From a virus (Duplodnaviria > Caudoviricetes), in the IMG/VR virus record IMGVR_UViG_3300025838_000056, positions 1 through 46,632 of that record: a stretch of 46,632 bases of DNA; one strand, 5' to 3'. The notes under the pieces were generated by a model. The model did no database searches. It saw only the letters and a list, made by a program, of their open reading frames with translations, and had not been told where the DNA came from. Shown piece by piece: positions 12,162-35,120 of this stretch (position 1 is the first letter of the stretch; each line of letters starts with the position of its first letter). Made by a program: the position numbers and the translations under genes.

Positions 12162-14606
12162 ATGGAAGATCCTCGCCACCTCCGACTGCCTGAGCCAGAA
12201 GCTCCAGAGGCGGAAAAGGGAGAAACAATAGACCTAGGTGACTTAGATCTTATCAAGAAAAAGCCCGACGCTATTGTTGTTGACCTCCCAGACGGTGCTG
12301 TCACCATCAATTTCGGAGGATTATCTCTACCCAATGATGAAGAGGCGAGTGACCACGACGCTAACTTGGCTATGTATGTGGGTAGCGGCGTTCTCAGTGG
12401 CGTTTCAGATGAATTGCTAAGGCTTATACAGGACGACATCACCCGCCAAGAACAACGGTTGCAAGACGTCGTGAGAGGTATTGACCTCTTAGGCATTAAG
12501 CTCGAAGAGCCAAGGTCTGAACCAAATGACGAAGGCATATCGGTTGTTAGGCACCCTCTCTTACTTGAATCCGTTCTTAGGTTCCAAGCGAACGCTCGTG
12601 GAGAGATGCTCCCCGCAGACGGTCCGGTTAAGGTTTCGAATGAGGGTGATGGCACGCAGCAATTGGACGAAGAAGCGGATCAACTCGAGCAAGACTTCAA
12701 CCATTACCTCACGGTCGGTGCTCCTGAGTATTACCCCGATACGGATCGGATGTTCTTCTCACTGGGACATGGCGGAGAGGCTTATAAAAAAGTATATTGG
12801 CATCCACTCAAAAGACGTCCTGTCTCAGAAACGATTGATCGTAAGGACATTATACTCTCAGACGGTGCGGTATCACTTGAGGCTTGTGGCCGGATCACGC
12901 ATCGCTCAAGAATGCGTCCAAGCATCGTCAAGCAAATGCAGCTCGCGGGTGCGTGGCGGGATATCGCGTTAAGTAATGGCGTTACGATGCCCGACCTTAA
13001 TGTTGTTGATCGCAAGCTAGACGATATTGCAGGCTTAATGCCTAAGATGAATATCGGCCTAGAGGATAGTGACCGAGAGATATACGAGTGTTATTGTGAA
13101 CTTGATCTTAATGGTTTTGAGCACACAGAAGACGGCGAGAAAACGGGCCTACCGCTTCCATACAGAGTAACGATTGATAAGGATAGCCGCCAGATCCTTG
13201 AGATAAGACGCTGGTGGGCAGAGGGGGATAAAAGCTATGTCCGCCAAGAAGTCTTTGTTGAATACGTTTTCGTGCCAGCTTTCCCTGGGGTTAATCTTGG
13301 GTTGCTTCATATTCTGGGAAACGCTAGTCGCGCTCTTACTGCGGCTTGGCGAATTGCTCTTGATAATGGCATGTTGGCTAATTTCCCAGGCGGCATTATG
13401 GCTCGATCCACAGGTAAGCAACAGACGACCAGCATCCGAGTTGGCCCAGGCCAGGTTGCGCCTATGGATGTTGATGGCGTCCCGCTTAACCAAGCGTTTA
13501 TGCCCCTCCCCTACAGAGATGTAACAAGCGGGTTTATGAGCATCATTCAAGACGTAGAGCAAACATCTCAACGTCTGGCAGGAACCGCAGAGACGGCTGT
13601 CGGAGAGGGGCGTAGTGACGCTCCGGTAGGTACGACGATAGCTCTTATTGACCAAGCCCAAAAAGTTATTAACGCCGTCCACAAGCGTATGCACTCTGCC
13701 CAGCAAAAAGAGTTCAGCCTATTAAAAGATCTTTTCCGCCGAGACCCAGAGGCTATTTGGCGTAACAATAAAAATCCAAATTTCGAGGGTGATAAGCAGA
13801 ACCTTCTAGCAGCATTGAATAATAACGACATTGTTCCAAAGGCGGACCCTAACACGGCAAGCCAGTCAATGCGTATTCAAAAAGCCATAGCTATCTATAC
13901 ACTTGCACAGCAAAATCCATCTGCATTTAATGAGAAAGCTGTATACACCAAAATATTCTCAATGATTGGCATAGACGACGCTCAATATCTATTTAATGAA
14001 TCTCAGCCAGCTCCTCCACAGCCAGATCCGGTCCAAGAAATAAACGCTCAGGCTCAGATGGTTGCGGCTCAAGCCAAGATGATGGATGCTCAAACCAAGG
14101 CTCAGACAGCCCAAGTGGAAAGCGGCATTAAGGCTGCTGGAATTAAAACCAAAAACCTTGAAGCTATGACGAAGCAGCAAGCTGCGCAAACAGATGCGCA
14201 ACTGAGTGCTATGGACCAGCAAAATAAACTTCGCCTAGAGCACATGAAGTTGCAGCAGTCGTCGATTGTTCACGGAGACAAAGCAAGACAGGCTGACCGC
14301 CACAAGGCTGCGGAAATTAGTGCCAAAGAACGCATGAAGGCTAACGACCACATGCATCAGCTTAATCATCAAGAAAGACAGAATGCCCACGAAAACAATA
14401 TGAACGGTTTAGATTTGATGGCCGCCGTACGTGAGCATAACGCTAACTTGAATGAAGCTCGGCGCGAGCAAGAAACGCAGATTATCCATGACAGAAATCA
14501 AGAGTCTGCTCATAGGCAAAATGAATTAGAAATGGAAAAGATGCGTATCAACCGCGATATTTTAGATCGCTTGATGGCAGCTCCAAAGGGTGAGTCAGAG
14601 AGATGA
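12162..14606 (+). CDS. portal protein with long C-terminal coiled-coil
   Basis: 'HPLLLESVLRFQA', 'YKKVYW', 'APVGTTIALI' pattern of podovirus (P22-like) portals; size and position. Confidence 0.85.
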   Translation: MEDPRHLRLPEPEAPEAEKGETIDLGDLDLIKKKPDAIVVDLPDGAVTINFGGLSLPNDEEASDHDANLAMYVGSGVLSGVSDELLRLIQDDITRQEQRLQDVVRGIDLLGIKLEEPRSEPNDEGISVVRHPLLLESVLRFQANARGEMLPADGPVKVSNEGDGTQQLDEEADQLEQDFNHYLTVGAPEYYPDTDRMFFSLGHGGEAYKKVYWHPLKRRPVSETIDRKDIILSDGAVSLEACGRITHRSRMRPSIVKQMQLAGAWRDIALSNGVTMPDLNVVDRKLDDIAGLMPKMNIGLEDSDREIYECYCELDLNGFEHTEDGEKTGLPLPYRVTIDKDSRQILEIRRWWAEGDKSYVRQEVFVEYVFVPAFPGVNLGLLHILGNASRALTAAWRIALDNGMLANFPGGIMARSTGKQQTTSIRVGPGQVAPMDVDGVPLNQAFMPLPYRDVTSGFMSIIQDVEQTSQRLAGTAETAVGEGRSDAPVGTTIALIDQAQKVINAVHKRMHSAQQKEFSLLKDLFRRDPEAIWRNNKNPNFEGDKQNLLAALNNNDIVPKADPNTASQSMRIQKAIAIYTLAQQNPSAFNEKAVYTKIFSMIGIDDAQYLFNESQPAPPQPDPVQEINAQAQMVAAQAKMMDAQTKAQTAQVESGIKAAGIKTKNLEAMTKQQAAQTDAQLSAMDQQNKLRLEHMKLQQSSIVHGDKARQADRHKAAEISAKERMKANDHMHQLNHQERQNAHENNMNGLDLMAAVREHNANLNEARREQETQIIHDRNQESAHRQNELEMEKMRINRDILDRLMAAPKGESER

Positions 14607-16570
14607 CCAAGGGCTTTATAAAAAAAGCACTTCATATATCTCTTCACGCCCCTAAGAAGCCACGCGCACTCAAACTCCTTAAACTCGCAACACCCGCTGA
14701 TCTTCCGCAGATGAACGAGAAGATCAAAGAGGCACCATTTGCAGCTGGATGGAGACATAATTTTGACGATGGTGGGTTTATTCCTACACCTCCACGTCGC
14801 CCAGTAGAGCTATCAGGTGACGATGCATCACGTGCATTTCCCGCTATATGGAAGAATGTTAATCCTATTGTAAAATACAATATGGGTCGTCAGGGTGGTT
14901 ATGCTGAGACATACCCACCAAGAGAGACAGGCGACCCTAAAAACCCAAAATCAATACGACCTAAAGAGTTTGGTAAAGCTGGCCCGAATGCACGTACGGG
15001 TATTGAGGTATATCGCCCAGAAATGACTGGATCGGATTTGGCATTAGAACTTTTACATGCTGATCCAAGAGCTATCTCTACGCGAAATACACTTCTACCA
15101 ACAATGTCTCCAGAGCAATTGGCTGAGTTGCGTAATAGAAATGATTATAAATATTCTATTGAGGAAAAATTACCTCAGAAAAAAGCCTATGAAAATGCAA
15201 TGGATGCTGCGGCAAGATCATATTTAGCAAACAAACGAGACCTCCCTCATAATCAAGGCCCCGCAAGAGATATTGATTACATGAATTACACTGATGAGCA
15301 AAAGAAGCATCTAGATAATCTATATAATTACATGATGACGGGTGAATATGCTCGCGGTGGAGAGGTGTGGGATAAACCAAGACCAAAAGATTTAGGGAAG
15401 CCACACCATCTATCTTCAAAACAAAAAGCAAGCGCCAAGGCGGCTGCAAAAGCTGCGGGAAGACCGTATCCAAACCTTATTGATAACATGCGGGCTGCTA
15501 GAGAAGATGGAGGGTCCGTATATAACGCGTTAAGATTAGCAAATAACATTAATAGAAAAAATGGCGGACATGCTCCATACGGGGTTATAGATTATGGGGA
15601 TAAAATTATTATTGGGTCTCCTCATGGCGATCCTATAGAACTGTCCGACGACATAAAGAAAAGAGTTAAAGAAATCGCATCTAAGCACGGAGCTTGGTAT
15701 GAAGGTGATGGAAAAGATAATTCTGCTAATCATTCATTGTTTGGAGATAAAAAGGTATATAAAGGTTCTTGGGATGATGCTTCTGCACAAAATATAAGAG
15801 GTTATCCAACGGAATACCTTGCTCCGTTATTTAGTAATGTTGATGTGAATAAGCAGCACGAAACATTTGAGAACCCTCGACAAACTATATTTGATAGCCT
15901 TTTATCTAATCAAGCAAAGGCTCGTTATTTTAAAGACAGATCATACGATAAAGAAACCTTAGCAAATTTTCTTAAGCAGGGAAGTGAAAAAGACACCGAT
16001 CTTCTGCGTATGGCTGCATCTCCTGCAACAAAAGATAACTTGCAAAAGTTTTTTTCGACGGGTGAAAAATTAATGTGGCCAGATAACTGGCAAGAATATC
16101 CAAATAATTTAGGTAAAATAGCTAAAAAGTTTGAAGATTCTAGAAATAATTTTTTACACAACGCTCCCGCAGGAGTTTACATAACAGGCGCTGGTCATAT
16201 ACCTGAACTTCAAAAATCTTATAAAGATTTGAATGTTATTGGCGGAGAACGTGCGGGATACGCAAAGGGCGGAGGAGCATGGACCCGTAAGGAAGGTAAA
16301 AACCCAAATGGCGGATTAAACGCCAAGGGACGTGCTTCTTTAAAAGCTGAAGGTCATGACATTAAGCCACCACAACCAGAGGGTGGCGCAAGAAGAGATA
16401 GCTTTTGTGCTAGAATGAAAGGCATGAAAGCAAAGCTAACATCTAAAGAGACTGCAAACGACCCTAATAGTCGTATTAATAAGTCTCTTAGGGCTTGGAA
16501 TTGTCATGCGGATGGCGGCGTTATTACGGATGCCTTACGCCTAGCACACAAAATACAGCGGAAGAAATGA
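14603..16570 (+). CDS. modular (putative poly)protein of unrelated domains separated by GG motifs; last module DUF6321-like
   Basis: Six xxxGG junctions; module 'AWTRKEGKNPNGGLNAKGR...SFCARM...SLRAWNC' recalled as a stand-alone small phage protein. Confidence 0.75.
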   Translation: MTKGFIKKALHISLHAPKKPRALKLLKLATPADLPQMNEKIKEAPFAAGWRHNFDDGGFIPTPPRRPVELSGDDASRAFPAIWKNVNPIVKYNMGRQGGYAETYPPRETGDPKNPKSIRPKEFGKAGPNARTGIEVYRPEMTGSDLALELLHADPRAISTRNTLLPTMSPEQLAELRNRNDYKYSIEEKLPQKKAYENAMDAAARSYLANKRDLPHNQGPARDIDYMNYTDEQKKHLDNLYNYMMTGEYARGGEVWDKPRPKDLGKPHHLSSKQKASAKAAAKAAGRPYPNLIDNMRAAREDGGSVYNALRLANNINRKNGGHAPYGVIDYGDKIIIGSPHGDPIELSDDIKKRVKEIASKHGAWYEGDGKDNSANHSLFGDKKVYKGSWDDASAQNIRGYPTEYLAPLFSNVDVNKQHETFENPRQTIFDSLLSNQAKARYFKDRSYDKETLANFLKQGSEKDTDLLRMAASPATKDNLQKFFSTGEKLMWPDNWQEYPNNLGKIAKKFEDSRNNFLHNAPAGVYITGAGHIPELQKSYKDLNVIGGERAGYAKGGGAWTRKEGKNPNGGLNAKGRASLKAEGHDIKPPQPEGGARRDSFCARMKGMKAKLTSKETANDPNSRINKSLRAWNCHADGGVITDALRLAHKIQRKK

Positions 16571-19500
16571 CCATGAGCGATTTAATCAAAAAGGCATTAA
16601 AAGTTTCTTCCGGCAACATTCCAAGCGTAAAAGGAATCGCGGGTATACCCCACATTCATGGATACCGTGGGTCTAAAAAAATATCTGTATTGGACTATCC
16701 AAATCCAAATACTAAACTACGTCAGCATTTTGCGGCTGGGGGTAACCCAACATGTGTAGTCACATGTGACCCGAATAATCAGACATCTGGCCCATCGGGC
16801 GTTAACGCGGTAACAATTAACCCAATAGGTGGTCTTACTAATCCAACAGATCTTACCAAAGGTACTGGTATTGCAATACCAACAACAGCAAATCCAAATA
16901 ACTACGGACAATTTGTAAATTCATTATATAAAGCGGATTTCAATCGTGCAGCCGACACTGGCGGATCAAATTACTGGGCACAGCAATTACAATCTGGAGC
17001 AGCAACACCACAGCAGGTAGCACAAGCCTTTGCCGCTTCACAAGAATCCCAAAGCATGAAATCTGCGGGTGAAACTCCATCAACTTTTATTAATCCTACA
17101 GATTTTTCAAAACTTGATCTCGCCTCGATGGGTATTACAGACCCCACGATGGCTGGTATATCTAATCTAGGGCCGTCCCCCGTGACGCCTGCGGATACGA
17201 CGGGAGCTGGAACAAGTGATACAACGCCAGCAACAGACGGAAGTTTAACAACAACAGGTAATCCATTAAGTCCAAGTGACTACCAGAATTTTCTAACAAG
17301 TCTTTATCAGCAAGATCTAGGTCGCGCAGCAGACGTTGGTGGTCAGCAATATTGGCTTAATCAATTACAGACAGGAGCCCTAACCCCTGACCAAGTCGCA
17401 GCTAATTTTGCGTCGTCATCGGAAGCAGGCAATTACGACACAACTTCCATTAACAACATGATTACGAACCTGACAGGCGGTCAGTTGGGTTCTGCCGATA
17501 CTCAAGCTCTTGTCAATCAAATTCAATCCGGCAACATGAGTTTAAGCGATGTTGCAAGTTATCTTGGCCAGACTGCACAGGGGGCACAAGGCTATTGGAA
17601 TAGCTATAACGGAGTTAATTTAGATACATCTGCACCTACAAATACTGTAGGCCCAAATGATTTTGCGTCTGGAACAAATGTCAGCGGAAATGTTTCTAAC
17701 GCAAGTATTATTGACCCGTCAATAACAGCTCTTCCTGCATCTGTTAAAAGCAATATCGCAGATATGGGAAATCTTGGTTTTTCTCCGTCTGCCATTTCAA
17801 GTCTGTTATCTGGTCAAGGGTATAATATACCAGCGAATGCCATACAGAGTTCAATGTTTGGCCTGATTTCATCTCCAGCAACACCGGCTGCGTCAACAGG
17901 ATCTAGTTCTAGTGAAGGAACGCCAAGCACTGGCGGCAGTTTAAGCACGACCGGAACGCCGATAAGCACCGGAACGTATACAAACCCAACAACTAATGTC
18001 AGCACTGGCGTTCCGAACGCCAGTATGATTGACGCGTCTATTCAATCATTACCGTCTAATGCCCAGCAAGCAATTGTAGACATGAGTAGTTATGGCTATT
18101 CGCCGTCTACAATTTCTACTGTATTAAGCTCTCAAGGATATAATATTCCAGCAAATGCTATTCAATCTTCTTTATATGGGCTGGTTACGCAAAGTGGGAA
18201 TAATCTTATAACGGCAAATGATTTTGCTGGTAATATTGCATATCAAAAAGGTTTAGGTCAAACAACTTCTGGAATACCTACAGATCCGGCGTCACAAAAT
18301 ATTGTGCCGCTAAGTCAGCCAACAACGATGGTTGATGAGCCGACGACACCTAATGTCATTCCAAATGTGATGCAGCCACAGCAAACGCTGCCAGCTATTA
18401 ACATTTCGGGTAAGCCTGCGGCTATAGTTGATCAGCCAGCATCACCTAGTGGCATTCCAAATGTTATGCAGCCGGAAACACCGGCTCCTGCACCTAGTTT
18501 AATAGATCAAATTTCAGCGGGCATAAAAAATATTACGCAGCCTGTAACAAATACTATTCAGAACACAGGACAACAAGTAGTCGATGCAATTCAGGGAAAT
18601 GGTCAGGCAGCACCATCATCTGCGGATTATGGTTATCAAGGTTTTATGGATACATTAAACAGTGGGTTAAAATCTGCTGGAAATAATATTGGCGCAAAAA
18701 TAGATGCCGTCCAAAACGCTATACAAGTTCCACTAACTGCTGCTCAACAGGCAGCATTGGGGCTAATAGCAACAAATGAAAGCGGCGGCAATTACAATGT
18801 TATTCTAGGAGATCCGACTACACCCAATGGGGCAGCGCAAGGAGATATTGCAAAATCTGTTGGGTATACGGGCAATTTAGAGAATATGACGCTTTCGCAA
18901 ATTAATGCGATGCAAACAAAGATGTTAAAATCTCCAGCAAACAATAAAAATTCATCTGCCATAGGAGCGTATCAATTTACACAGCAAAATCTTTTTGGAT
19001 CTAAAGGAAAACCAGGGCAACTGGCACAACTTGGCATTACGCCAGATATGTATGACTCAATTAAGTTTACCCCTGCTCTCCAAGAAAAACTTGCCGCAAA
19101 TACTGCAATAGAAAAAAGAGGCATGAATTTATCTAACCCATCCTCTTGGGGGAAGGGAGCAAAGCAAGAATGGACGTCGGTAGGAAAATCACTAGCAGCG
19201 CCAGGGGCTATACAAAAGGTTCGCGCAGCAGGAAGTGGCCCTTCTCAAACAGTTGGCGGTCAACCGGCACAAGCATATAAACCAATCGTTCCTGTTAACG
19301 CTCCTATAGTGCCAAGCACCGTAACAAACGATCCAAACGCGGCGGCGGATGCGCTAAAAAATATAAATACGACTGCTGGAAATCAGATAATCCAGCAGAC
19401 GCAGGGATCTACGGCGCAAACTGGTTTGCCGACAAGCAATGTTTCAGGATCAGATGCACAAGGCACTCTAGAATCTTTACCCAGTGTAAATTCTGGTTCT

Positions 19501-21732
19501 ATTTCTACAGATCCAAATGCGGGAGCCCCATCAGATCAAGGAGCAGCGTTAAGTGGTGATGGGTCGCAAATGGTAGCCTCGACGTCCACCGTTCAAGTTC
19601 CGGTACAGGTTCAAGTGCCCAAAACGATAACTGTTCCGGGGCAAATGAAAACGTTTACGGGGCCGGATGGTAATAGCATTAGCTATCAAGAGCCTGCGAC
19701 AACCAAAACCGTCATGACGACACAGACGCAAATGCAGTCGAAGGACGTAACGACGCAAGTTCCGGCGTGGCAAAAAGAAGGATTTCAATCGCAGGCGGAT
19801 TATCAAGCAGCGGTGGATAATGGCAACACCAGCGCCAGCCAGTATTATGCTTCCCCTGAATATGCGCAGGCACAGCAAGAGCAGTTAAATGCGCAGGCAC
19901 AAAGTGAGGGGTTTTCTAGCTATGCAGAAAAGCAAGCGGCAAACGGCCAAAGCCCGGCAGATTATTACGCGCAACAAAATGGTTACGCTAATGCGGCAGC
20001 GGAAAATGCAGCCATAGAGTCAGTCCAAGAAGCAGATAGTGGTGAATATGGAGGTAGTGGGCGAGACATAGGCAATCGTGGCGGTCGCATGACTAAGAAT
20101 AAGCTACAGAAGAAAGCTTTAAAAATATCTGATGAGTTAACTCGCAGCGAAAAAGGCGGCGGCGGCCCTACAATTAGTCCTTACGGATTTGTTACCCCTG
20201 ACAGGTCAAAAAAGAACCCTATTCTAGAGCATAACCGTCTACACCCTAAGTCTTACGAACAGCAAAAAGCAGAAGCTGAAGAGTTGGCAAAACGTAAGCC
20301 GGTAGATCAGTGGTATGAACCGTGGTCTGAAAAAGAAGACCGTGGAATGGCCATATATCCTGAAGATTATCAAAAAGGTAATTTAGGACTAGGCCGATAT
20401 GCTATGAAAAAAGGCGGAACGATAGAGGATGCATGTGGAGGGGCATACAGCGGCCCCGCAAACACAGGAACAACAATTTCAGGAACGTTGACAGGTGTTA
20501 GCGGACAAGGGGCAGGGCAATCATATTCTTGGAAAAGAGGCGGTCGAGTTAATGACAAAACCGATACCCTAAAAAAACCCAATCTAGGAAGGACTGATAC
20601 AATGCATGATGATATTAAACACGCTCTTCGCCTAGCATTGGGACGTAAACACTATGCAAATGGCGGATCTGGAACTTGTAACGCGTCTAGTTCAAATAGC
20701 TTTACGCCTTTCCTAGATAACTTGTATCAGCAAGATTTAGGAAGAGCCGCTGACCAAGGCGGTGAGGAATACTGGGCTAACCAAATGGCTAACGGCATGT
20801 CGCCGGAGCAAGTCGCTGCTTCATTTTATAATAGCCAAGAAGCGCAAAACCGTAGACAAAATAATCCACAAATGCCGACACAGACACTAGGGTTGGGACA
20901 AGCTGCTTATAATAATCTCCCGCCATCTATGCAGGCACAAGCACAATCTTGTCAGCCTAATCCAGCACAACCTGCAATGCAATTAATGGGAGGGGGCTGT
21001 TCTACACCACAAGGGTTCTATGGGAATCGTGGTATGGATGGTAACAGAAATAATAATTTTATTAATAATCTGTATCAACAAGACCTTGGGCGTGCTCCTG
21101 ATCAATCAGGAGGTCAATATTGGCTTCAACAGATTCAAAGCGGTGCCATGACGCCACAGCAAGTTGCACAAAACTTTGCAAATTCATCCGAAGCTAAGTC
21201 ATATCAACAAGCAAACCCTAATAATCAACAATTCCAATTCCCATCTGGGCGTAACAATTTCGGAGGTTATGGTAATGGAACCAAGGGTGGGTATTCCATG
21301 CCGTCTCAACCAGTAGGCGGCGTTGGACAGCCTCCTAATATTGATCCTGCGTTATTACAGCAAATGCGCGGTCAGATGCAGGGTGCTCTAGGTCAAAATC
21401 AGGGAAGCAACGGCACAAAAAGCGGGTATGGTATGCCGCAGCAACCATACACTGGCCAAGGCAACGGCCTGAAAAACGGTTATAATCCTTCTCAGCCAAC
21501 TAATGTTCCGGCTATGGGTACAGGTCAGCCTATCGGCGGTGGAGGAGCTACCCCACAGGGATACGCTCAAGCAAACAATATTCCTTACCCACAACCTAAC
21601 GCACAAACAACCCCATTGAATGCACCTGCCGCTTTAGGATTTGCTCGAGGTGGTAAGGTAAAACAACGCAAGCATAAAAACGCGAAATCTAAGGCTCTTA
21701 GTGTTGTAAATAAATTTACAGGAAGAGAGTAA
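16567..21732 (+). CDS. large putative internal virion/ejection protein with DUF4214-like repeats and a lysozyme-like domain
   Basis: ATGA-coupled start 16567; four 'LY..DLGRA.D..G..YW...L..G.....QVA..F..S.E' repeats; 'ESGGNY...SAIGAYQF...KFTPALQEKLA' muramidase motif. Confidence 0.75.
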   Translation: MTMSDLIKKALKVSSGNIPSVKGIAGIPHIHGYRGSKKISVLDYPNPNTKLRQHFAAGGNPTCVVTCDPNNQTSGPSGVNAVTINPIGGLTNPTDLTKGTGIAIPTTANPNNYGQFVNSLYKADFNRAADTGGSNYWAQQLQSGAATPQQVAQAFAASQESQSMKSAGETPSTFINPTDFSKLDLASMGITDPTMAGISNLGPSPVTPADTTGAGTSDTTPATDGSLTTTGNPLSPSDYQNFLTSLYQQDLGRAADVGGQQYWLNQLQTGALTPDQVAANFASSSEAGNYDTTSINNMITNLTGGQLGSADTQALVNQIQSGNMSLSDVASYLGQTAQGAQGYWNSYNGVNLDTSAPTNTVGPNDFASGTNVSGNVSNASIIDPSITALPASVKSNIADMGNLGFSPSAISSLLSGQGYNIPANAIQSSMFGLISSPATPAASTGSSSSEGTPSTGGSLSTTGTPISTGTYTNPTTNVSTGVPNASMIDASIQSLPSNAQQAIVDMSSYGYSPSTISTVLSSQGYNIPANAIQSSLYGLVTQSGNNLITANDFAGNIAYQKGLGQTTSGIPTDPASQNIVPLSQPTTMVDEPTTPNVIPNVMQPQQTLPAINISGKPAAIVDQPASPSGIPNVMQPETPAPAPSLIDQISAGIKNITQPVTNTIQNTGQQVVDAIQGNGQAAPSSADYGYQGFMDTLNSGLKSAGNNIGAKIDAVQNAIQVPLTAAQQAALGLIATNESGGNYNVILGDPTTPNGAAQGDIAKSVGYTGNLENMTLSQINAMQTKMLKSPANNKNSSAIGAYQFTQQNLFGSKGKPGQLAQLGITPDMYDSIKFTPALQEKLAANTAIEKRGMNLSNPSSWGKGAKQEWTSVGKSLAAPGAIQKVRAAGSGPSQTVGGQPAQAYKPIVPVNAPIVPSTVTNDPNAAADALKNINTTAGNQIIQQTQGSTAQTGLPTSNVSGSDAQGTLESLPSVNSGSISTDPNAGAPSDQGAALSGDGSQMVASTSTVQVPVQVQVPKTITVPGQMKTFTGPDGNSISYQEPATTKTVMTTQTQMQSKDVTTQVPAWQKEGFQSQADYQAAVDNGNTSASQYYASPEYAQAQQEQLNAQAQSEGFSSYAEKQAANGQSPADYYAQQNGYANAAAENAAIESVQEADSGEYGGSGRDIGNRGGRMTKNKLQKKALKISDELTRSEKGGGGPTISPYGFVTPDRSKKNPILEHNRLHPKSYEQQKAEAEELAKRKPVDQWYEPWSEKEDRGMAIYPEDYQKGNLGLGRYAMKKGGTIEDACGGAYSGPANTGTTISGTLTGVSGQGAGQSYSWKRGGRVNDKTDTLKKPNLGRTDTMHDDIKHALRLALGRKHYANGGSGTCNASSSNSFTPFLDNLYQQDLGRAADQGGEEYWANQMANGMSPEQVAASFYNSQEAQNRRQNNPQMPTQTLGLGQAAYNNLPPSMQAQAQSCQPNPAQPAMQLMGGGCSTPQGFYGNRGMDGNRNNNFINNLYQQDLGRAPDQSGGQYWLQQIQSGAMTPQQVAQNFANSSEAKSYQQANPNNQQFQFPSGRNNFGGYGNGTKGGYSMPSQPVGGVGQPPNIDPALLQQMRGQMQGALGQNQGSNGTKSGYGMPQQPYTGQGNGLKNGYNPSQPTNVPAMGTGQPIGGGGATPQGYAQANNIPYPQPNAQTTPLNAPAALGFARGGKVKQRKHKNAKSKALSVVNKFTGRE

Positions 21733-21735
21733 CAG

Positions 21736-22260
21736 ATGAGTTTTTACACAGATGTTATTAAGAAAGACCCGCGTTTTTCTTCCGTAAATATTTGTAGGGA
21801 TATGGCTCTTCTTGAGCCATCCTTCCGCGCTAAGGTTCAGTCATTAGTGGCGCAAGCATCTAAAGATGGGCATGACATTAGAATTGCGGAAACATTCAGG
21901 TCTCAAGCTAGACAGGCTCATTTGTTCGAGCAAGGATACACTCAACTTAAGAATGTTGGCGTTCATAATTACGGACTAGCTTGCGACTTTAATTTGTTTA
22001 TAGATGGCGTTTATCAGTCTGACGGAGCCAAATATAAATTCCTGCACGATTACGAAAAGAAATTTAGAATAATTAGTGGTCAGTTGTGGGGAACGCCGTG
22101 GCAGAAGCACACGTTTACAGATTGGGACCACATACAGGGCATACCTGTATTTCGGCAAGGCTCTCTCTTTAATGGTTCTTGGTATCCTGATAATAACTAT
22201 GACCCAATAGCTGACACGATAACGCATTATGGATCTGTGGCTACAAAATATTATGGGTGA
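21736..22260 (+). CDS. M15-family peptidoglycan peptidase (endolysin)
   Basis: 'ETFRSQARQ', 'HNYGLACD', 'DWDHIQ' Zn-binding motifs. Confidence 0.85.
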   Translation: MSFYTDVIKKDPRFSSVNICRDMALLEPSFRAKVQSLVAQASKDGHDIRIAETFRSQARQAHLFEQGYTQLKNVGVHNYGLACDFNLFIDGVYQSDGAKYKFLHDYEKKFRIISGQLWGTPWQKHTFTDWDHIQGIPVFRQGSLFNGSWYPDNNYDPIADTITHYGSVATKYYG

Positions 22261-22264
22261 CAAT

Positions 22265-22958: not shown

Positions 22959-22967
22959 GGCATTAAA

Positions 22968-25014: not shown

Positions 25015-25082
25015 TAAGATTATTTAAATAAAACGTTAATAATATAGTAGTATTATTACGTCTCTCATATCATGGAGATAAC

Positions 25083-25835: not shown

Positions 25836-25838
25836 ACA

Positions 25839-26150
25839 ATGAAAAAGTTATTACTTATTCCGGTTTTGGCGTTTGTCTTAACTGGGTGCAACACAACCAG
25901 CCAAGCAAACCTGACGAAAATCATCTCTCAGGTTCAAGATGCAGCTGTTGCCGCTTGTCGCTTCGAGCCAACAGTAGCCACCATCACTTCCATTGTGACG
26001 GCTAATCAGGCTGCAACTGCTATTCAGATTGCTGATTTGATTTGCGGAGCAGTAAATGGAACGACCCCCACGCCCAAAGCGGGTGCTGGTCCTATGTATG
26101 TGACCGTTAATGGGCAGAAGATTGCCGTAACGGGCAATTTTGTAAAGTAA
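25839..26150 (+). CDS. lipoprotein (possible spanin)
   Basis: 'MKKLLLIPVLAFVLTGC' signal peptide II lipobox. Confidence 0.75.
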   Translation: MKKLLLIPVLAFVLTGCNTTSQANLTKIISQVQDAAVAACRFEPTVATITSIVTANQAATAIQIADLICGAVNGTTPTPKAGAGPMYVTVNGQKIAVTGNFVK

Positions 26151-27936: not shown

Positions 27937-28350
27937 ATGCCCGCTGCATTGATGCTCCATGAAGAAGATCCACGCACGGAAATTCTTAACAAAGTCGGTA
28001 GTTTAGATGGTGTAGAAGTTTTTGGTTCGGATGTTTTAGTTGCTCTTTACATCAGACCTCAAAAGACAAAGTCGGGGATTATCCTCGCTGATTCAACAAG
28101 AGAAGAAGACCGTTGGCAGGGAAAGGCCGGACTTATCTTAAAGTTAGGCCCAACAGCTTATACGGATGATGAAGGAAATAAATTCAGAGATATTTCTGAA
28201 GGTGATTGGGTTGTTTTCAGACCTAGTGACGGATGGGCTGTAACTCTCAATTCATCAGCAAATTTAGCTTCAAAAGATGCAGTCGCATGTCGAGTGGTTA
28301 ATGACATTCATATTCGCATGAGAATATCCACGCCGGATGCAATTTACTAA
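27937..28350 (+). CDS. groES: co-chaperonin GroES-like protein
   Basis: 'KTKSGIIL' mobile loop, 'ILKLGPTAY', 'EGDWVVF'. Confidence 0.85.
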   Translation: MPAALMLHEEDPRTEILNKVGSLDGVEVFGSDVLVALYIRPQKTKSGIILADSTREEDRWQGKAGLILKLGPTAYTDDEGNKFRDISEGDWVVFRPSDGWAVTLNSSANLASKDAVACRVVNDIHIRMRISTPDAIY

Positions 28351-28362
28351 GGGACGCTCCCA

Positions 28363-29367
28363 ATGGAAGATATTAAAGAAGAAAAGCCGGTAAAGGTAAC
28401 CTTACCAGAAGATCCTATTGTTGAAGTAGATCTTAATGAAAGCAAGGCTAAGATTGACGAGCCTTCTGCTAAGATAGAAGAAGTTTCTGCCGATAAAAAA
28501 ACGCAATCTGTAGATGAAAGGGAAAGAGCCCTAAAGGAGCTTAAATCCCAATATGAACATCAGAAACGTATTGCGGAAGCAGAACGGGAAGCACGTAAGC
28601 AGGCAGAGTATTATGCCCACCAGCAAGCGCAACAAATTGGCTACGCGCAACACGAGGTTCAAGATTCAAATCTAAAGATTATCTTGAATGCGATTGACGC
28701 CACAGAGCAAGCGGCGGCCAATGCAGAGCGTGATTACGCTGATGCTATGGCAGTTAATAATCATGTTGCAGCAGCTCGCGCCCAACGTGCGATTGCACAG
28801 GCTGAAAGTCACTTGCTTCAGCTTCAGAACGGAAGACAAAGACTTGAGGAAACATTACAGGATACCACTGAAGGTTCTGTTTATGCTCCGCAGGTTCCTA
28901 GTTTTGAACCTCAAATACCTCAAGACCCTGTTGAAATGTATGCTTCGAAACTGGGTCCTAGAAGCGCGTCTTGGCTTCGGTCACACCCTGATGCGGTAAA
29001 CAAAATACCAAGACTTACACGAGCTCACCAAGATGCAATCGAGGATGGTATTGTCCCAGAATCGGACGATTACTTCCAGTATATTGAATCTCGTCTTGGT
29101 CTCACCAGCCGAGAAAACAGTTATGAACATCAACCAGTAGTTGCTCAGTCCTCTCCCTCTAGGAAGGCAATGGCGTCTGCACCCGTTACTTCTAATGCTA
29201 GTTATGCCTCCCCGCGAAGCAGCGGCAGCTCCAATACAATGACGCTATCGCCACAGGAAGTTGACGTTGCTCTTCTTATGGAGCCTGAATTGTCCCGAGA
29301 AAAGGCAATTGAGACTTACGCACGGAACAAGCAAATATTAATCAAGCAGGGGAAGCTTCTTGGGTGA
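28363..29367 (+). CDS. putative capsid scaffolding protein
   Basis: Acidic coiled-coil, C-terminal 'TLSPQEV..A.....E.YA' helix; position between portal and capsid gene. Confidence 0.6.
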   Translation: MEDIKEEKPVKVTLPEDPIVEVDLNESKAKIDEPSAKIEEVSADKKTQSVDERERALKELKSQYEHQKRIAEAEREARKQAEYYAHQQAQQIGYAQHEVQDSNLKIILNAIDATEQAAANAERDYADAMAVNNHVAAARAQRAIAQAESHLLQLQNGRQRLEETLQDTTEGSVYAPQVPSFEPQIPQDPVEMYASKLGPRSASWLRSHPDAVNKIPRLTRAHQDAIEDGIVPESDDYFQYIESRLGLTSRENSYEHQPVVAQSSPSRKAMASAPVTSNASYASPRSSGSSNTMTLSPQEVDVALLMEPELSREKAIETYARNKQILIKQGKLLG

Positions 29368-29893
29368 AATTACTAAATCTGCCGTGCATGGATAGTGATG
29401 CTTTTTTATAAGCATTGTGAGCATCATCGGCCGATTTAAATGACCCTAAGTAAACATTCTTATTGTTTATCATAATCTTGGATACCCAACGGTTACTACG
29501 TCTATCAAAGTAAACGCCTTTAAAACCAGAGGTGTTATTCTTATGTTTTCGAGTATTCCATTGGTTTTCAGATTTTGAAGCTAATCTAAGATTGGACAAA
29601 CGGTTATTATTTGGATTGTTATCAATATGATCAATATCATCAATCGGGTAAGATTCATAAGCAAGCAGCCATACAATTCGGTGCGCTATGTAATTTTTCT
29701 TATTGATGCGTATTTGGATGCCTTTGTGTTTTGTTTGGTTGCCAGCGGGTTTGTTAGCCCACCTTGTGTTCCAAATTTTAAAAGCTCTAGCATCAGGAAA
29801 ATGGTCAATTGGTCTTTTTTTCCAAATGAGATACCCAGTTTGAGGGTCATATTTAAGGATAGAAGTAACATAATCAAAGGTAAGATCACTCAT
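29342..29893 (-). CDS. HNH homing endonuclease with AP2 domain
   Basis: 'AHRIVW', 'IDHIDNNPNNNRLSNLRLA', 'NTSGFKGV...YLGSF'. Confidence 0.92.
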   Translation of the reverse strand: MSDLTFDYVTSILKYDPQTGYLIWKKRPIDHFPDARAFKIWNTRWANKPAGNQTKHKGIQIRINKKNYIAHRIVWLLAYESYPIDDIDHIDNNPNNNRLSNLRLASKSENQWNTRKHKNNTSGFKGVYFDRRSNRWVSKIMINNKNVYLGSFKSADDAHNAYKKASLSMHGRFSNFTQEASPA

Positions 29894-29972
29894 ACAAAAA
29901 CTTCCATATCATGCTGAAACTTGGAATGTTTGATCTTACTATGCCTATTCGACCACTTCAAGGAATTAATCC

Positions 29973-30542
29973 ATGATTAATGAAACAAATATAGACCTTC
30001 GAACCAAAGAAGGTAGGGCTTTTAAATCCGCTCAAAACGATGGCGACAATGCCTCGTCTTCCAAGCCAGCTATAGCAAAAGAAACATCTGAACAATCTAG
30101 AGCTAGAGCAGAAGCAAGAATACGAGCGATCCGAGGCAACCCCGATCTAGCGAACGGAACTGATCGCGATAAATATTGGGCACCACCACCGCCAGATGGA
30201 TTTGATTATCAATGGAAACTAAAGTCCGTTCTTAACCAAGACGACAATGATCGCATCCGACAAAATGAGTTAAACGGATGGGAAGAGGTTCCACTTAGCC
30301 GCCATCCAGAACTTATGCCTAAGGGCTGGAAAGGCGAGACGATAGAAGTCGGCGGACTTGTTCTCATGGAACGCCCAAAGGTGTTTACCGATGAGGCAAG
30401 GGCTGCGGAACGTCAGGCTGCTCGTGAGGCTATTATTACTAAGGAAAATCAGATGCGCGACGGTCGATCAAATGACCTTGGCCGCAGAGAAGTCCAAAAG
30501 TTTAATAAATCTTACGACCGGATTACCGTCCCTAACGAATAA
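29973..30542 (+). CDS. head-region hypothetical protein
   Basis: 'PPPPDGFDYQWK', 'GWEEVP..HPE', 'IEVGGLVLMERP'; type of protein seen before capsid genes. Confidence 0.75.
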   Translation: MINETNIDLRTKEGRAFKSAQNDGDNASSSKPAIAKETSEQSRARAEARIRAIRGNPDLANGTDRDKYWAPPPPDGFDYQWKLKSVLNQDDNDRIRQNELNGWEEVPLSRHPELMPKGWKGETIEVGGLVLMERPKVFTDEARAAERQAAREAIITKENQMRDGRSNDLGRREVQKFNKSYDRITVPNE

Positions 30543-30554
30543 TCAATAAGTAAT

Positions 30555-30581
30555 AAGGGAGGCGTAATGTCCTCCCTTTTT
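30555..30581 (+). terminator. intrinsic terminator
   Basis: AAGGGAGG...CCTCCCTT followed by T run. Confidence 0.75.
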
Positions 30582-30587
30582 AATCAG

Positions 30588-30616
30588 TTGACATAACCTA
30601 TTATAATTCGTATAAT
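30588..30616 (+). promoter_or_regulatory. consensus sigma70 promoter for the capsid operon
   Basis: TTGACA-17 nt-TATAAT. Confidence 0.85.
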
Positions 30617-30622
30617 TTAACG

Positions 30623-30871
30623 TGCCAATTATTCTAATTTATTGGCGAAAGCCGTTAGTGCATTTCTGCATTTCGGTAATCTGACATTTTGAATGTCCGC
30701 GCTGGATATTCTGGTTAGAAAATCGAGTAAAGTTTGGATGGTATTCCACCAAACGTCGGATAATTCCGAATTTTAGTATCCCGCGCTGGGATGCTTTCCA
30801 CCATACACTTGTAATTCACCCAACGCGCTGTTGTGGCAAATTACTCTCACTTCGAATAGGAGGAGGGGAAA
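30623..30871 (+). ncRNA. structured ~250-nt leader with three GCGCU-loop hairpins
   Basis: Hairpins at 30691-30711, 30775-30795 and 30821-30833 with different stems and identical loops. Confidence 0.6.
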
Positions 30872-31495
30872 TTGTCGAATAACTTCGCACCCTTCGGATT
30901 TAGACCTACTGCGACGAGCAATGGTCCGATGAACTTTCGGGTCTCTACGCGTCGTATTGCGTCTACGAATACAACTGCAATCTTTAAAGGCGATGCTGTC
31001 GTTCCAGTAACAGGCCCAGCCACTGGCTATATCACGCAGGCAACTGCGGGTTCTACCGTTGGTGCAGGCATTTTCTGGGGCTGTGAGTATCTCTCAGTAA
31101 GCCAAAAGCGCGTAATCTGGAGCCAGTATTGGCCGGGTTCTGACGCCCAGAATGATGTGCAAGCATACATCATCGATGATCCAAACTCACGTTTTCTTGT
31201 TCAGACGTCTGGCACAGCGTTCCAGATTTCTGGCACGATTTACAACTTTGGTTCTTCGCCAGTTGGTCAGCTTGCCCAGCTCTCTGTTGGCACGGGTTCA
31301 ACCCTTACCCAGCAGTCTGGCATGTATCTCAGCTCCGTAGGAACGACTAACACGTTCCCATTCATCATCACGGACATGGTTATTGATCCGCCTGGTGCTA
31401 ACGGAACTGATCCGACGTCTCAATACAACTACGTAGTTGTCGGCTTTAACAACGAGTGGCTGCGCGGCAACGCTGCGGTTACCGGCATCGCTTAA
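30872..31495 (+). CDS. putative minor capsid/decoration protein
   Basis: TTG start after AGGAGGAGG; 'PFGFRP', 'IFKGD.V', 'GIFWGCEY', 'DDP'; directly before the capsid gene. Confidence 0.7.
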   Translation: MSNNFAPFGFRPTATSNGPMNFRVSTRRIASTNTTAIFKGDAVVPVTGPATGYITQATAGSTVGAGIFWGCEYLSVSQKRVIWSQYWPGSDAQNDVQAYIIDDPNSRFLVQTSGTAFQISGTIYNFGSSPVGQLAQLSVGTGSTLTQQSGMYLSSVGTTNTFPFIITDMVIDPPGANGTDPTSQYNYVVVGFNNEWLRGNAAVTGIA

Positions 31496-31508
31496 GGAGT
31501 AGGCTCAC

Positions 31509-32423
31509 ATGGCAGTCAATTTATCAGCCATTAGGGACCTGCTTCTTCCAGGTCTACGTGGCGTTGAGGGTAAATATCCTCAGATCCCAGCTCAGTGGGA
31601 CAAAGTGTTCGAGCGTGCAAAGTCAAACATGGCTCTCGAACGCACAGCTGAAATGCGTTACCTCGGTCTTGCAGCAATCAAGACTGAAGGCGGTGCGGTC
31701 AGCTTCGACAACAACGCAAGCGAGCGTTACGTCTACAATCAGGAACATTATGAAATCGGCTTGGGCTATGCAATTACCCGTAAGGCGATTGATGACAACC
31801 TGTATAAGACACAGTTTGCTCCTACGAACCTCGGCCTTATCGAGTCTTTCGGTCAGACCAAGGAAATCTACGGCGCGAACATCTTCAACACGGCTCAGAC
31901 GTATAACGCGTCAGTCGGTGGCGACGGTCAGGCACTCTGCTCGTTGAACCATCCTATTGACGGTCAGGTTATTCCTAACACGCCGACAGTCCAAGTCGAT
32001 CTTAACGAATCTTCGCTGTTGAATGCTATGATCAGCATCCGCACGAACTTCCGCGACATCGCTGGCCTGAAGATGTTTGCTCGTGGCCGCAAGCTGATTG
32101 TTCCGCCTGCTCTTGAGCCTGTTGCTATCCGTCTTACAAAGACAGAACTACGCCCTGGCACTGCTGACAACGACGTTAATGCCATCCAGACAACCGCAGG
32201 CGGCTTGCCTGAAGGTTATATGGTCATGGACTTCTTGACGTCTCCTTATGCTTGGTTCTTGCTAACCAACATCAAGGGTCTCGTTTATATGGAACGCGTT
32301 CCATACGAGATGGACATGCAGGTCGATTTCACGACCGATAATCTTCTCGTGAAGGGCTATGAACGTTATTCTTTCGGGTATTACAACTGGCGTTCAATCT
32401 ATGGCAGTTTCCCAACGTCATAA
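31509..32423 (+). CDS. major capsid protein (Mu gpT-like HK97 fold)
   Basis: 'LLPGL', 'KTEGG', 'IT.KAIDDNLY', 'GGDG..L....HP', 'LIVPP', 'ERYSFG...WR'. Confidence 0.9.
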   Translation: MAVNLSAIRDLLLPGLRGVEGKYPQIPAQWDKVFERAKSNMALERTAEMRYLGLAAIKTEGGAVSFDNNASERYVYNQEHYEIGLGYAITRKAIDDNLYKTQFAPTNLGLIESFGQTKEIYGANIFNTAQTYNASVGGDGQALCSLNHPIDGQVIPNTPTVQVDLNESSLLNAMISIRTNFRDIAGLKMFARGRKLIVPPALEPVAIRLTKTELRPGTADNDVNAIQTTAGGLPEGYMVMDFLTSPYAWFLLTNIKGLVYMERVPYEMDMQVDFTTDNLLVKGYERYSFGYYNWRSIYGSFPTS

Positions 32424-33254: not shown

Positions 33255-33275
33255 TACAAGTCCCTGTCTTCATAT

Positions 33276-34463: not shown

Positions 34464-34874
34464 ATGAAGGGTAAGAAATACAAAGACGATATGGATCGTC
34501 ACTGCCGCGCTGATGGTGGTTCTGTTGAAGAAGGCGTTGAAGTTTCCGAGGAAGGTCCACGGGACGTATACGCTGGTGGTGATTCGCCAACCGTAAAGGC
34601 TGCGCGTAACACAAAGAGCCAGTTTAAAAAGGGCGGTAAGGTTTCTGCTTTTAAGCGTGGTGAAATGTCGGAAGGCATGAAGGAACACGACGAAAAGAAG
34701 AAAATGAAAAAGCATGGCGGCATGGCTGAAGGCGAAAAAGGCCATCACCGCGCTGACCGCGCTCCACGCAAGGCTGGCGGTCGCGTAGGCCGTGACATGG
34801 GTGGACCTATTTCTACGGCTGGTAAAGTTGATGTTCGCCCTAACTTCAAGGGCAACACAACGATTGCCGATTAA
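34464..34874 (+). CDS. small basic protein with multiple GG motifs
   Basis: RADGG, FKKGG, KKHGG, RKAGG. Confidence 0.7.
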   Translation: MKGKKYKDDMDRHCRADGGSVEEGVEVSEEGPRDVYAGGDSPTVKAARNTKSQFKKGGKVSAFKRGEMSEGMKEHDEKKKMKKHGGMAEGEKGHHRADRAPRKAGGRVGRDMGGPISTAGKVDVRPNFKGNTTIAD

Positions 34875-34922: not shown

Positions 34923-35120
34923 ATGTCCGATAACTGGATAGCAGGCGCTATTAAGCATAAGGGTGCCCTCCATAAAGAATTGGGCGTCCCTGAAGGAAAA
35001 AAAATACCGGCCAAGAAGCTGGAAAAGGCTACGCATAGCGATAATCCCACGCTAGCAAAACGCGCCAATCTTGCAGAAACGCTACGCAAGCTCCACAAGC
35101 GTCACGGTGGTGAAATCTAA
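34923..35120 (+). CDS. small basic phage protein ending in KRHGG-EI
   Basis: 'WI..AIK..GAL...LGV..G.KIP..KL...A.LA.TL' pattern. Confidence 0.7.
   Translation: MSDNWIAGAIKHKGALHKELGVPEGKKIPAKKLEKATHSDNPTLAKRANLAETLRKLHKRHGGEI

What the first reader, a model, noticed from the sequence alone, without database searches (positions are those of the whole stretch)
14603..35120. Candidate di-glycine polyprotein processing system: about 28 xxxGG motifs in six ORFs plus a papain-fold protease
Seen: a motif of the form (aromatic/Met/basic)-(A/K/D)-x-G-G recurs in six head-region ORFs. ORF 14603 has FDDGG 14762, YARGG 15347, REDGG 15500, RKNGG 15554, YAKGG 16259 and HADGG 16505. ORF 16567 has FAAGG 16729, NRGG 20074, EKGG 20149, MKKGG 20404, WKRGG 20530, YANGG 20653 and FARGG 21640. 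ORF 22968 has FATDGG 23028. ORF 26367 has nine (e.g. RKKGG 26562 and 26751, YADGG 26874, RADGG 27108, RKDGG 27414), ORF 34464 has four, and ORF 34923 has one. The motifs fall at boundaries between unrelated segments. A C1 papain-like peptidase (25083-25835) lies among these genes, and I see no classical prohead protease in the window. Established: cleavage after Gly-Gly matures adenovirus and ASFV structural proteins, and papain-fold C39 peptidases and deubiquitinases also cut after GG. Inference: these ORFs are precursors cut at GG to release separately acting virion cargo, a strategy I do not know to be described for tailed phages.
Basis: partly seen in the sequence, partly recalled or inferred. 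Interest (0 to 1): 0.92.

Follow-up and report, generated by a model that had tools for sequence, protein, structure and literature searches.

The report
Gly-Gly joints in phage cargo proteins
A short peptide built around two glycines marks the joints between swappable modules of proteins that this freshwater phage likely carries in its head and injects; it is likely a cutting and docking signal like the one at the mapped cut of phage T5's tape-measure protein, but the neighbouring papain-like enzyme is missing from complete relatives that carry the same peptide and is likely not the cutter.

Summary
The motif is real: 23 strict copies in the six ORFs against about 5 in shuffles and 1 in the other 47 ORFs. 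It is a seven-residue protein signal, [FYMR]-[KA]-[KRD]-G-G-[KRA]-[VI], often paired with an unreported short helix. It marks module joints: 35 of 95 homology breakpoints lie beside it (7.8 expected), and a natural strain variant lacks one module motif to motif. The enzyme assignment fails. The C1 peptidase is absent from 7 of 7 complete motif-bearing relatives, travels with lysis genes, and its family prefers bulky P2 residues. Cutting is still likely, but not after GG. The only match in T5 tape measure pb2 is its mapped cut (R1127/AEGG), and the portal-bound piece of crAss001 gp45 starts in that register. T4-like cyanophages put glutamate sites at the same joint. Best reading (0.45): a cut-and-dock joint of injected proteins, cut before [AK]-x-G-G by an unidentified host or phage enzyme; rival (0.35): an uncut handle. 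No cut or binding was shown here, and homology to the tape-measure motif is unproven. The scan noted this motif before on at least ten other genomes; I found no paper on it.

The parts
14603..16570 (+). 655-aa module chain directly after the portal gene; six motifs (14762, 15347, 15500, 15554, 16259, 16505) and three helix elements (14618, 15518, 16523); DUF6321 at aa 565-632
   Evidence: the modules recur shuffled in relatives
15493..16267 (+). Module missing in a natural strain variant: 775 nt replaced by 16 nt, an in-frame loss of 253 codons; the joint lands on the first Gly of the 16259 motif and rebuilds a motif
   Evidence: contigs of 2 of 4 runs (255 and 32 letters on the shorter side)
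16567..21732 (+). 1721-aa low-complexity chain with four DUF4214 stretches; five strict motifs (16729, 20404, 20530, 20653, 21640), helix elements at 16585 and 20614
22968..24890 (+). 640-aa DUF7178 protein with an N-terminal helix element (22980) and a one-residue-longer motif (23028); lies inside the lysis cassette
26367..27584 (+). 405-aa basic, Pro/Gly-rich core protein before GroES; six strict motifs (26562, 26751, 26874, 27084, 27108, 27414); three Gly-Gly pairs are invariant in 12 diverse homologs and insertions begin and end at motifs
   Evidence: 30 of 30 dereplicated homologs carry the motif
34464..34874 (+). 136-aa basic protein with five motifs (34506, 34623, 34707, 34767, 34791) spaced 8-39 aa apart
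   Evidence: 10 of 10 dereplicated homologs carry it
34923..35120 (+). 65-aa basic module with one motif two residues from its end (35097); weakly like crAss001 gp45 aa 391-421
   Evidence: 39% over 31 aa, pairwise E 2e-4
25083..25835 (+). C1A papain-family peptidase, catalytic residues intact, no signal peptide; part of the lysis cassette and likely not part of the motif system
21736..26150 (+). Lysis cassette: M15 peptidase 21736, holin-like 22229, lysozyme 22458, C1 25083, lipoprotein 25839; the same five genes in the same order, without ORF 22968, in relative G002
12162..14606 (+). Portal protein (phrog_1216; homologs hit SU10_portal); no motif
27937..32423 (+). GroES-like 27937, scaffold-like 28363 (inferred from position and sequence), conserved unknown 29973 and 30929, major capsid protein 31509; none carries the motif

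Best explanation
The motif is a seven-residue protein signal that sits at the joints between swappable modules of proteins that this short-tailed phage likely packs in its head and injects, and it is likely cut one residue into the motif (before [Ala/Lys]-x-Gly-Gly, as in T5 pb2) by an enzyme that is likely not the neighbouring C1 peptidase. Shown: the motif, its protein-level conservation, its place at joints and ends, its restriction to post-portal cargo, two basic core proteins and ejection proteins, and its independence of C1. Inferred: the chains are loaded into the prohead whole, probably through the short helix that flanks the motif (P22 loads its ejection proteins through the scaffold). 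They would then be cut so that each piece begins with [AK]-x-G-G-x-[VI], a new end that would dock or order the piece for ejection, while the helix handles and the basic proteins 26367 and 34464 would be reduced to short peptides like T4's core proteins. The enzyme is unknown: a host protease is the simplest choice, and a conserved domain of unknown fold encoded just before the ejection genes of relatives is the best phage candidate.
For: [quoted passage not shown] In crAss001 gp45 the portal-bound piece is reported as 425-552 and the tail-bound piece as 214-245 (PMC10172136, passages). Residue 425 is the Ala of an A-x-G-G joint, and both pieces fall inside single joint-to-joint intervals, 207-260 and 425-559; random placement does this in 0.4% of trials. 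The DUF6321 module that follows the motif at 16259 also ends module-chain proteins of T4-like cyanophages, where it follows glutamate sites and no GG motif occurs (2 of 2 examined). It occurs as a stand-alone gene starting at the same point, so it seems to work as a separate peptide. In the segments collected, GG lies between the helix and the cargo: helix first at N-termini, helix last at C-termini (the patterns sought these orders). Lambda gpH, cut by an unknown enzyme near its C-terminus (PMC12617516, passages), has three matches, all in its last 121 aa; a cut after F733 would free 12.5 kDa against about 14 kDa reported. The motif marks proteins annotated as DNA ejection proteins and ends the last ejection-block protein in 7 of 7 complete relatives. 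A host protease trims P22 gp7 (PMC8402733, passage).
Against: No cut has been measured in this phage family. No trans-acting protease was found by Pfam in 335 ORFs of 125 aa or more from the 7 complete relatives; hits were S74 self-cutting chaperones, one M15 and two inteins. Homology between this motif and the tape-measure motif is not established: a profile of 150 members of the linked domain did not reach lambda gpH, T5 pb2 or gp45, and only a 23-residue likeness to gpH was seen (probability 11%, pairwise E 0.003). The T5 link rests on one site, and an earlier scan note led me to it. A resolved domain may begin at a motif simply because the motif is its first strand, so the 0.4% overstates the gp45 evidence; the authors read gp45 as one chain threaded through the portal. 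Lambda's third match (842-846) lies inside a resolved stretch, 818-849, so it is uncut. Place 1 varies between Arg, Phe, Tyr, Met, Lys and Leu, which is broad for one enzyme. Motifs 2 residues (34923) and 7 residues (HTVC023P gp83) from a C-terminus would release almost nothing. Roseobacter phage CRP-901 has the same head gene order and almost no motifs, and crAss001 cargo gp46, gp47, gp49 and gp50 have none, so the motif is not needed for all cargo.
Confidence: 0.45

Rival explanations
1. The motif is an uncut binding handle: a strand-turn-strand, often continued by the helix, that binds the scaffold, capsid, portal or a reader domain. Proteins 26367 and 34464 would be multivalent internal scaffolds, and the modules would stay joined.
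For: Conservation runs on both sides of GG: selected on the N side alone, 60% of 85 sites have Val/Ile two places after GG; selected on the C side alone, 82% of 190 have Lys/Ala at place 2. The last motif lies within 45 aa of the C-terminus in 10 of 21 large cargo ORFs (2.5 expected). No trans protease in 7 of 7 complete relatives. The motif precedes a conserved folded domain in 102 of 150 members (22% at random places), as a first strand would. Lambda's third match is uncut.
Against: It does not explain why the single match in T5 pb2 is the mapped cut, or why the same module follows glutamate sites in T4-like phages. No N-terminal enrichment (4 of 13, 2.2 expected).
Confidence: 0.35
2. The motif is mainly a flexible hinge and a crossover point left by gene fusion (for example the old start of small genes), with no dedicated reader.
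For: Breakpoints cluster at motifs; a strain variant loses a module motif to motif; stand-alone copies of DUF6321 begin at the same point; CRP-901 does without it.
Against: Codons under the motif vary synonymously and follow the usage of other Gly-Gly pairs, so it is not a DNA signal. Three Gly-Gly motifs are invariant in a 26367 alignment with 35% mean column identity. Places 1, 2 and 7 are constrained, which a hinge would not need.
Confidence: 0.12
3. One reading: the C1 peptidase at 25083 cuts the six ORFs after Gly-Gly, as the adenovirus and ASFV proteases do.
For: The gene lies among the motif-bearing ORFs, has intact catalytic residues and no signal peptide. In the one other C1-bearing relative (G002) the cassette also follows motif-bearing ejection genes.
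Against: Present in 2 of 29 relatives, one of them 100% identical to the window; 0 of 7 complete ones. A profile of 120 homologs run on all six frames found nothing better than E 1 in the seven. In G002 it lies about 42 kb from the capsid gene inside the same five-gene lysis cassette. It belongs to a widespread cellular C1A group (3,971 homologs; closest solved structure 3OIS, E 1e-49), and papain-like enzymes mainly prefer bulky hydrophobic P2 residues (PMC9712828, passages), not Gly.
Confidence: 0.03

Closest known systems
T5 tape measure pb2, cut to pb2* and pb2C after R1127 (PMC10038345), and lambda gpH cut to gpH* and gpHC (PMC12617516)
   Same: An ejected protein is cut during assembly at (T5) or near (lambda) a match to the same five-residue pattern; the lambda paper states that its site and enzyme are unknown.
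   Different: Long-tailed phages, one to three matches near one end of one protein; here about two dozen copies in six head-region proteins of a short-tailed phage. Homology was not established by profile.
crAss001 cargo protein C1, gp45 (PMC10172136)
   Same: Internal cargo with seven A/K-x-G-G joints, a weak 34923-like module and an ALRLA helix; resolved pieces fall between joints.
   Different: Different phage order; only one of five cargo proteins carries the motif; place 3 is often aromatic; the authors describe no motif and no cut in the passages read.
T4 internal and core proteins with the capsid targeting sequence and prohead protease gp21 (PMC5694885)
   Same: A short signal linked to loading and trimming; basic or charged core proteins cut to short pieces; the DUF6321 module is shared with module chains of T4-like cyanophages.
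   Different: T4 encodes its protease and cuts after Glu; no such protease was found here or in complete relatives.
P22 ejection proteins gp7, gp16, gp20 (PMC8402733)
   Same: Short-tailed phage, scaffold-dependent loading, one protein trimmed by a host protease (OpdA) to an N-terminus that contains Gly-Gly.
   Different: No repeated shared motif is described; the gp7 end has the glycines one place earlier than the T5 register.
Polyvalent proteins of phages (Iyer et al. 2017, PMC5512222)
   Same: Mosaic chains of modules encoded among virion genes; one relative's chain carries an ART-PolyVal hit (below cut-off).
   Different: The passages read name zincin, assemblin, DD and LonC peptidases, contain no occurrence of 'papain' and show no linker motif.
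Adenovirus protease and ASFV pS273R polyprotein processing (recalled, not from a call)
   Same: Repeated Gly-Gly sites in core proteins.
   Different: Those enzymes are SUMO-protease-like and always virus-encoded, and they cut after Gly-Gly; here the candidate is C1A, is dispensable, and the best-supported register is different.

Membership tests
Adenovirus/ASFV-type Gly-Gly polyprotein processing | A virus-encoded protease always accompanies the substrates | tested here: not met
   C1 in 0 of 7 complete motif-bearing relatives
Adenovirus/ASFV-type Gly-Gly polyprotein processing | The protease belongs to a Gly-Gly-specific family (C5, C48, C39, deubiquitinases; recalled) | tested here: not met
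   Best hit Peptidase_C1 55.4 bits; C39_2 20.4 bits, below its cut-off of 24; closest solved structure a C1A enzyme
Adenovirus/ASFV-type Gly-Gly polyprotein processing | Cut falls directly after the second Gly | not testable with these tools
   No proteomics for this phage; look-alike sites in T5 pb2 and gp45 point to another register
C1A papain-family peptidase (ORF 25083) | Papain-family profile with Gln, Cys, His, Asn catalytic set | tested here: met
T4-type capsid targeting sequence with gp21 | Phage-encoded prohead serine protease | tested here: inconclusive
   No hit in the window ORFs scanned or in 335 ORFs of complete relatives; small ORFs and unknown folds not excluded
T4-type capsid targeting sequence with gp21 | Glu at the joints | tested here: not met
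   Joints carry the Gly-Gly motif; Glu sites stand at the same joint only in T4-like cyanophages
Tape-measure cut module (T5 pb2, lambda gpH) | Same short motif | tested here: met
   The window-derived pattern matches T5 pb2 once, at the mapped cut, and lambda gpH three times
Tape-measure cut module (T5 pb2, lambda gpH) | Homologous domain after the motif | tested here: inconclusive
   Weak 23-aa likeness to gpH; the profile did not reach gpH, pb2 or gp45; the domain's gene lies outside the window
Tape-measure cut module (T5 pb2, lambda gpH) | Cut during assembly | not testable with these tools
   needs virion proteomics
Podophage internal (ejection) proteins | Present inside the virion | not testable with these tools
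   Inferred from gene position and from the same motif on PHROG-annotated DNA ejection proteins of relatives
Polyvalent proteins | Several unrelated, swappable domains in one chain beside virion genes | tested here: met
Polyvalent proteins | Named effector or LPD domains | tested here: inconclusive
   Window chains show only DUF6321, DUF4214 and DUF7178

The most novel reading that the evidence does not exclude
One cut-and-dock code is shared by the injected proteins of unrelated tailed phages: podophage cargo chains, crAss001 gp45 and siphophage tape measures are all cut before [AK]-x-G-G by a host enzyme or by a phage domain of unknown fold. This would place the long-unknown lambda gpH cut at F733/A734 and would explain gp45's two pieces in head and tail as separate fragments rather than one chain threaded through the portal.
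Probability: 0.25. Interest if true: 0.87.

Novelty: new variant of a known kind. Interest (0 to 1): 0.6.

Why it matters
How short-tailed phages choose, load and order the proteins they inject is poorly understood, and the site and enzyme of the lambda gpH cut are stated as unknown in 2025 (PMC12617516). A short motif that marks cargo and module joints gives exact, testable predictions in cultured phages (T5, lambda, crAss001, HTVC023P). It also gives a sequence rule for spotting injected proteins among hypothetical genes: 282 copies in cargo classes against 1 in 70,225 aa of other virion genes. If it works as a loading or release signal, it would be a handle for placing proteins in phage particles used on laboratory bacteria.

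Tried and rejected
C1 as the enzyme: rejected. A viral-contig scan with C1 found only two identical copies and one distant hit (close relatives only). DNA-level signal (Chi-like or repeat): rejected, codons vary. Masking artefact in the breakpoint test: unmasked 31 of 113, decoy masks 8.4 on average over 15 runs. ORF 29973 as a hidden protease: no invariant Cys, His or Ser, model pLDDT 74, best PDB Z 3.9, only uncharacterised viral matches; nothing supports it, and a weak match excludes nothing. S74 domains (first ejection protein of 5 of 7 complete relatives) as the enzyme: where the site could be read (3 proteins, 2 genomes) it is not a Gly-Gly motif, and S74 acts on itself (own knowledge). 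The conserved domain before the ejection genes (7 of 7 complete relatives and G002; 3,511 representatives): model pLDDT 82, no PDB match (the wide search tested mainly residues 5-45); invariant Thr, Asp, Asn, Glu and a His-Asp pair, no function shown. No RNA holder listed. The gel assignment of crAss001 bands is a picture and could not be read; Extended Data Fig. 3 and Table 3 and one supplement of PMC10172136 were not readable; bioRxiv supplements were not seen; these could show whether gp45 is whole. Literature: nine full-text searches, of which 8, 69 and 82 asked for a Gly-Gly or short-motif cargo signal in phages; none listed a paper on this motif, but subscription journals are not covered. 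No virion proteomics of a cultured relative appeared in the listings. Atlas searches gave only unnamed or DUF7178 viral clusters. Rows dropped: 4 of 29 proteins before the breakpoint test (three 26367-family members, one tail-region ORF); 4 opposite-strand shadow ORFs before the Pfam scans; ORFs under 125 aa were not scanned, and my overlap filter hid a few real genes (for example GroES in G010 and G015).
Full report
Setting. The window is a 46,632-base virus record. It holds terminase (441), portal (12162), a GroES-like gene (27937), a scaffold-like gene (28363), the major capsid gene (31509) and tail genes. The capsid protein is 78-100% identical to those of 80 viral contigs and about 40% identical to those of the cultured phages HTVC023P and CRP-901, which share the head gene order. 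Homologs hit SU10 portal and adaptor families, so it is likely a short-tailed phage; GcrA genes in relatives suggest alphaproteobacterial hosts (inference). All 24 listed runs that hold the DNA are freshwater metagenomes of one year.

The observation. The strict pattern gives 23 copies in the six ORFs against 4.8+-2.0 in the hardest shuffle (0 of 2,000 reach it) and 1 in the other 47 ORFs. In dereplicated homologs it occurs 282 times in 32,910 aa of the six classes and once in 70,225 aa of twelve other classes. Codons vary synonymously, so the constraint is on the protein. A second element was not reported: a short helix, [IV]xxAL[RK][LI]A, found in 14603, 16567 and 22968 and almost only in the cargo and 34923 classes of relatives (29 of 30 hits). 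It often continues the motif directly, giving a linker of about 15 residues in 21 distinct segments.

Joints. Among 25 large motif-bearing proteins, 35 of 95 internal homology breakpoints lie within 12 aa of a motif, against 7.8+-2.9 for rotated motifs (maximum 20 in 5,000); unmasked and decoy-masked controls agree. In ORF 14603, five of six motifs have a breakpoint within 5 aa; for 16567 the test showed none. Contigs of two of four runs join 15492 to 16268 with 16 other letters, an in-frame loss of 253 codons that ends on the first Gly of the 16259 motif and rebuilds a motif (one contig has 255 letters on its shorter side, the other 32). In twelve 26367 homologs, three Gly-Gly pairs are among the 24 invariant columns and insertions begin and end at motifs.

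What carries it. In complete relatives the motif is concentrated in the variable genes after the portal, in the 26367 and 34464 families, and in the large genes after the tail block; three of the four tested from that block hit PHROG families named DNA ejection protein. The last large protein of that block ends with motif, about 40 residues, then a helix like the one above in 7 of 7 complete genomes. The window ends before this block. HTVC023P has such matches in several proteins, among them gp30, gp32, gp43, gp82 and gp83, the last seven residues from its end; CRP-901 has almost none. That the six ORFs are inside the virion is inferred, not shown.

The peptidase. ORF 25083 is a complete C1A enzyme from a group with 3,971 homologs, several named from cellular genomes. 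It is present in 2 of 29 relatives, one of them identical to the window, and in 0 of 7 that are at least 90% complete. A profile of 120 homologs run over all six frames of those seven found nothing under E 1, while each has 12-19 motifs. In G002 it lies in the cassette M15 peptidase, holin, lysozyme, C1, lipoprotein, the same five genes in the same order as in the window, about 42 kb from the capsid gene; there the cassette does follow motif-bearing ejection genes. Papain-like enzymes mainly prefer bulky hydrophobic P2 residues (PMC9712828, passages). Pfam scans of 335 ORFs of the seven genomes found no other trans-acting protease.

Cut or handle. I began with the handle reading. It is supported by two-sided conservation, motifs close to C-termini (10 of 21 within 45 aa, 2.5 expected), the lack of a protease, and a conserved domain that the motif precedes in 102 of 150 members. 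Four results moved me toward cutting in another register. First, T5 pb2 has one match in 1,219 aa, starting at R1127, and PMC10038345 maps the cut after R1127 (passage); earlier scan notes gave this lead and I checked it. Second, crAss001 gp45 has seven A/K-x-G-G joints; its portal-bound piece, 425-552, begins on the Ala of one, and its tail-bound piece, 214-245, lies between two others (PMC10172136, passages and section 22). This speaks against a cut after G427-G428 if the model is continuous, which I could not check, and fits the T5 register; it also fits a motif that is simply the first strand of a domain. Third, the DUF6321 module occurs in 520 phage records; in the two T4-like cyanophage chains examined it follows a Glu site and the chains have no GG motif. 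T4 gp21 cuts core proteins to short pieces (PMC5694885, passages); that it cuts after Glu is recalled, and the passages give Glu motifs for the related SPN3US and phiKZ enzymes. Fourth, lambda gpH has three matches in its last 121 aa and loses about 14 kDa by an unknown cut; a cut after F733 would give 12.5 kDa, while the third match lies inside a resolved stretch and is uncut (PMC12617516, passages). A host enzyme is plausible: OpdA trims P22 gp7, and P22 loads its ejection proteins through the scaffold (PMC8402733, passages).

The weak link is homology. The domain that could tie this family to tape measures is encoded two or three genes before the ejection genes in 7 of 7 complete relatives. 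It folds with pLDDT 82 and has no PDB match. It shows a 23-residue likeness to gpH, none to gp45, and its profile reached only Pag-Yong1 among the named phages tested. A five-residue pattern can arise twice. No binding prediction was obtained, so the reader of the motif is open.

Verdict. Observation confirmed; enzyme assignment rejected; cutting after Gly-Gly unlikely. Best reading 0.45: a cut-and-dock joint in the T5 register with an unidentified enzyme. Uncut handle 0.35, passive hinge 0.12, C1 0.03. It works like T4's loading-and-trimming signal and like tape-measure processing, and it fails membership of the adenovirus/ASFV and T4 systems on tested features. Nine literature searches listed no paper on the motif. 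Papers were seen as search passages only, plus section 22 and the review file of PMC10172136 and supplement parts of PMC6235969; PMC10721106, PMC5512222, 10.1101/2022.09.20.507954 and 10.64898/2026.02.24.707460 were also seen as passages. The scan has noted this motif on at least ten other genomes. What this window adds is the co-occurrence test against a named protease, the paired helix, a strain variant that loses a module motif to motif, and the Glu-for-Gly-Gly exchange at the DUF6321 joint. Interest 0.6; new variant of a known kind.

Noticed in passing
window 21736-26150; L082 (G002 45.4-49.0 kb): A five-gene lysis cassette (M15 peptidase, holin-like, lysozyme, C1A peptidase, lipoprotein) shared by two phages at different genome positions; a papain-family enzyme without signal peptide inside a lysis cassette is unexplained.
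   Followed up: partly
L084:3896-4426 and homologs (outside the window): Core protein of 7 of 7 complete relatives: a small widespread N-terminal helical module, a Gly-Gly motif, then a two-repeat domain of unknown fold with invariant Thr, Asp, Asn, Glu and a His-Asp pair; candidate reader or cutter of the motif.
   Followed up: partly
L122:5774-6445 (lambda gpI): The resolved part of gpI starts at residue 134 or 135, directly at a Gly-Gly (133-134); the F-pyocin homolog loses its N-terminal region. A possible cut after Gly-Gly in a tailed phage, separate from the motif studied.
   Followed up: partly
L118:2651-4240, L121:1433-4243: T4-like cyanophage proteins beside the terminase genes are chains of small basic modules separated by Glu sites and end in DUF6321.
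   Followed up: partly
L084:4913-11308, L111:11960-17254, L116:13410-17393, L092:5201-10669, L097:10772-14866: The first ejection-block protein carries a Peptidase_S74 self-cutting chaperone domain in 5 of 7 complete relatives, in three of them with a lysozyme or cell-wall hydrolase domain further on.
   Followed up: partly
window 29973-30542: Conserved 189-aa gene between scaffold and capsid genes, with invariant aromatic residues and no match to a solved fold.
   Followed up: partly
window 27937-28350: GroES-like gene conserved directly before the scaffold gene throughout the family, with invariant His8, Asp11 and Cys118 outside the usual core.
   Followed up: no
window 39611-40216: Conserved tail-region gene with an invariant CxxC...CxxC set, likely binding zinc or iron.
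   Followed up: no
window 32556-34000 and 29342-29893 (minus strand): Two homing-type endonuclease genes (EndoVII/HNH, GIY-YIG) directly after the capsid gene, and an HNH-looking ORF on the opposite strand after the scaffold gene (by eye, not scanned).
   Followed up: no
window 2410-2985: ORF with an RNA polymerase alpha C-terminal domain (PF03118, E 3.8e-17) between terminase and a DNA methylase.
   Followed up: no
window 16567-21732, aa about 730-880: A lysozyme-like-looking stretch between the DUF4214 repeats (by eye; no family hit).
   Followed up: no
L084:4431-4898 and homologs: A GNAT-like acetyltransferase gene stands directly before the ejection genes in 7 of 7 complete relatives.
   Followed up: no
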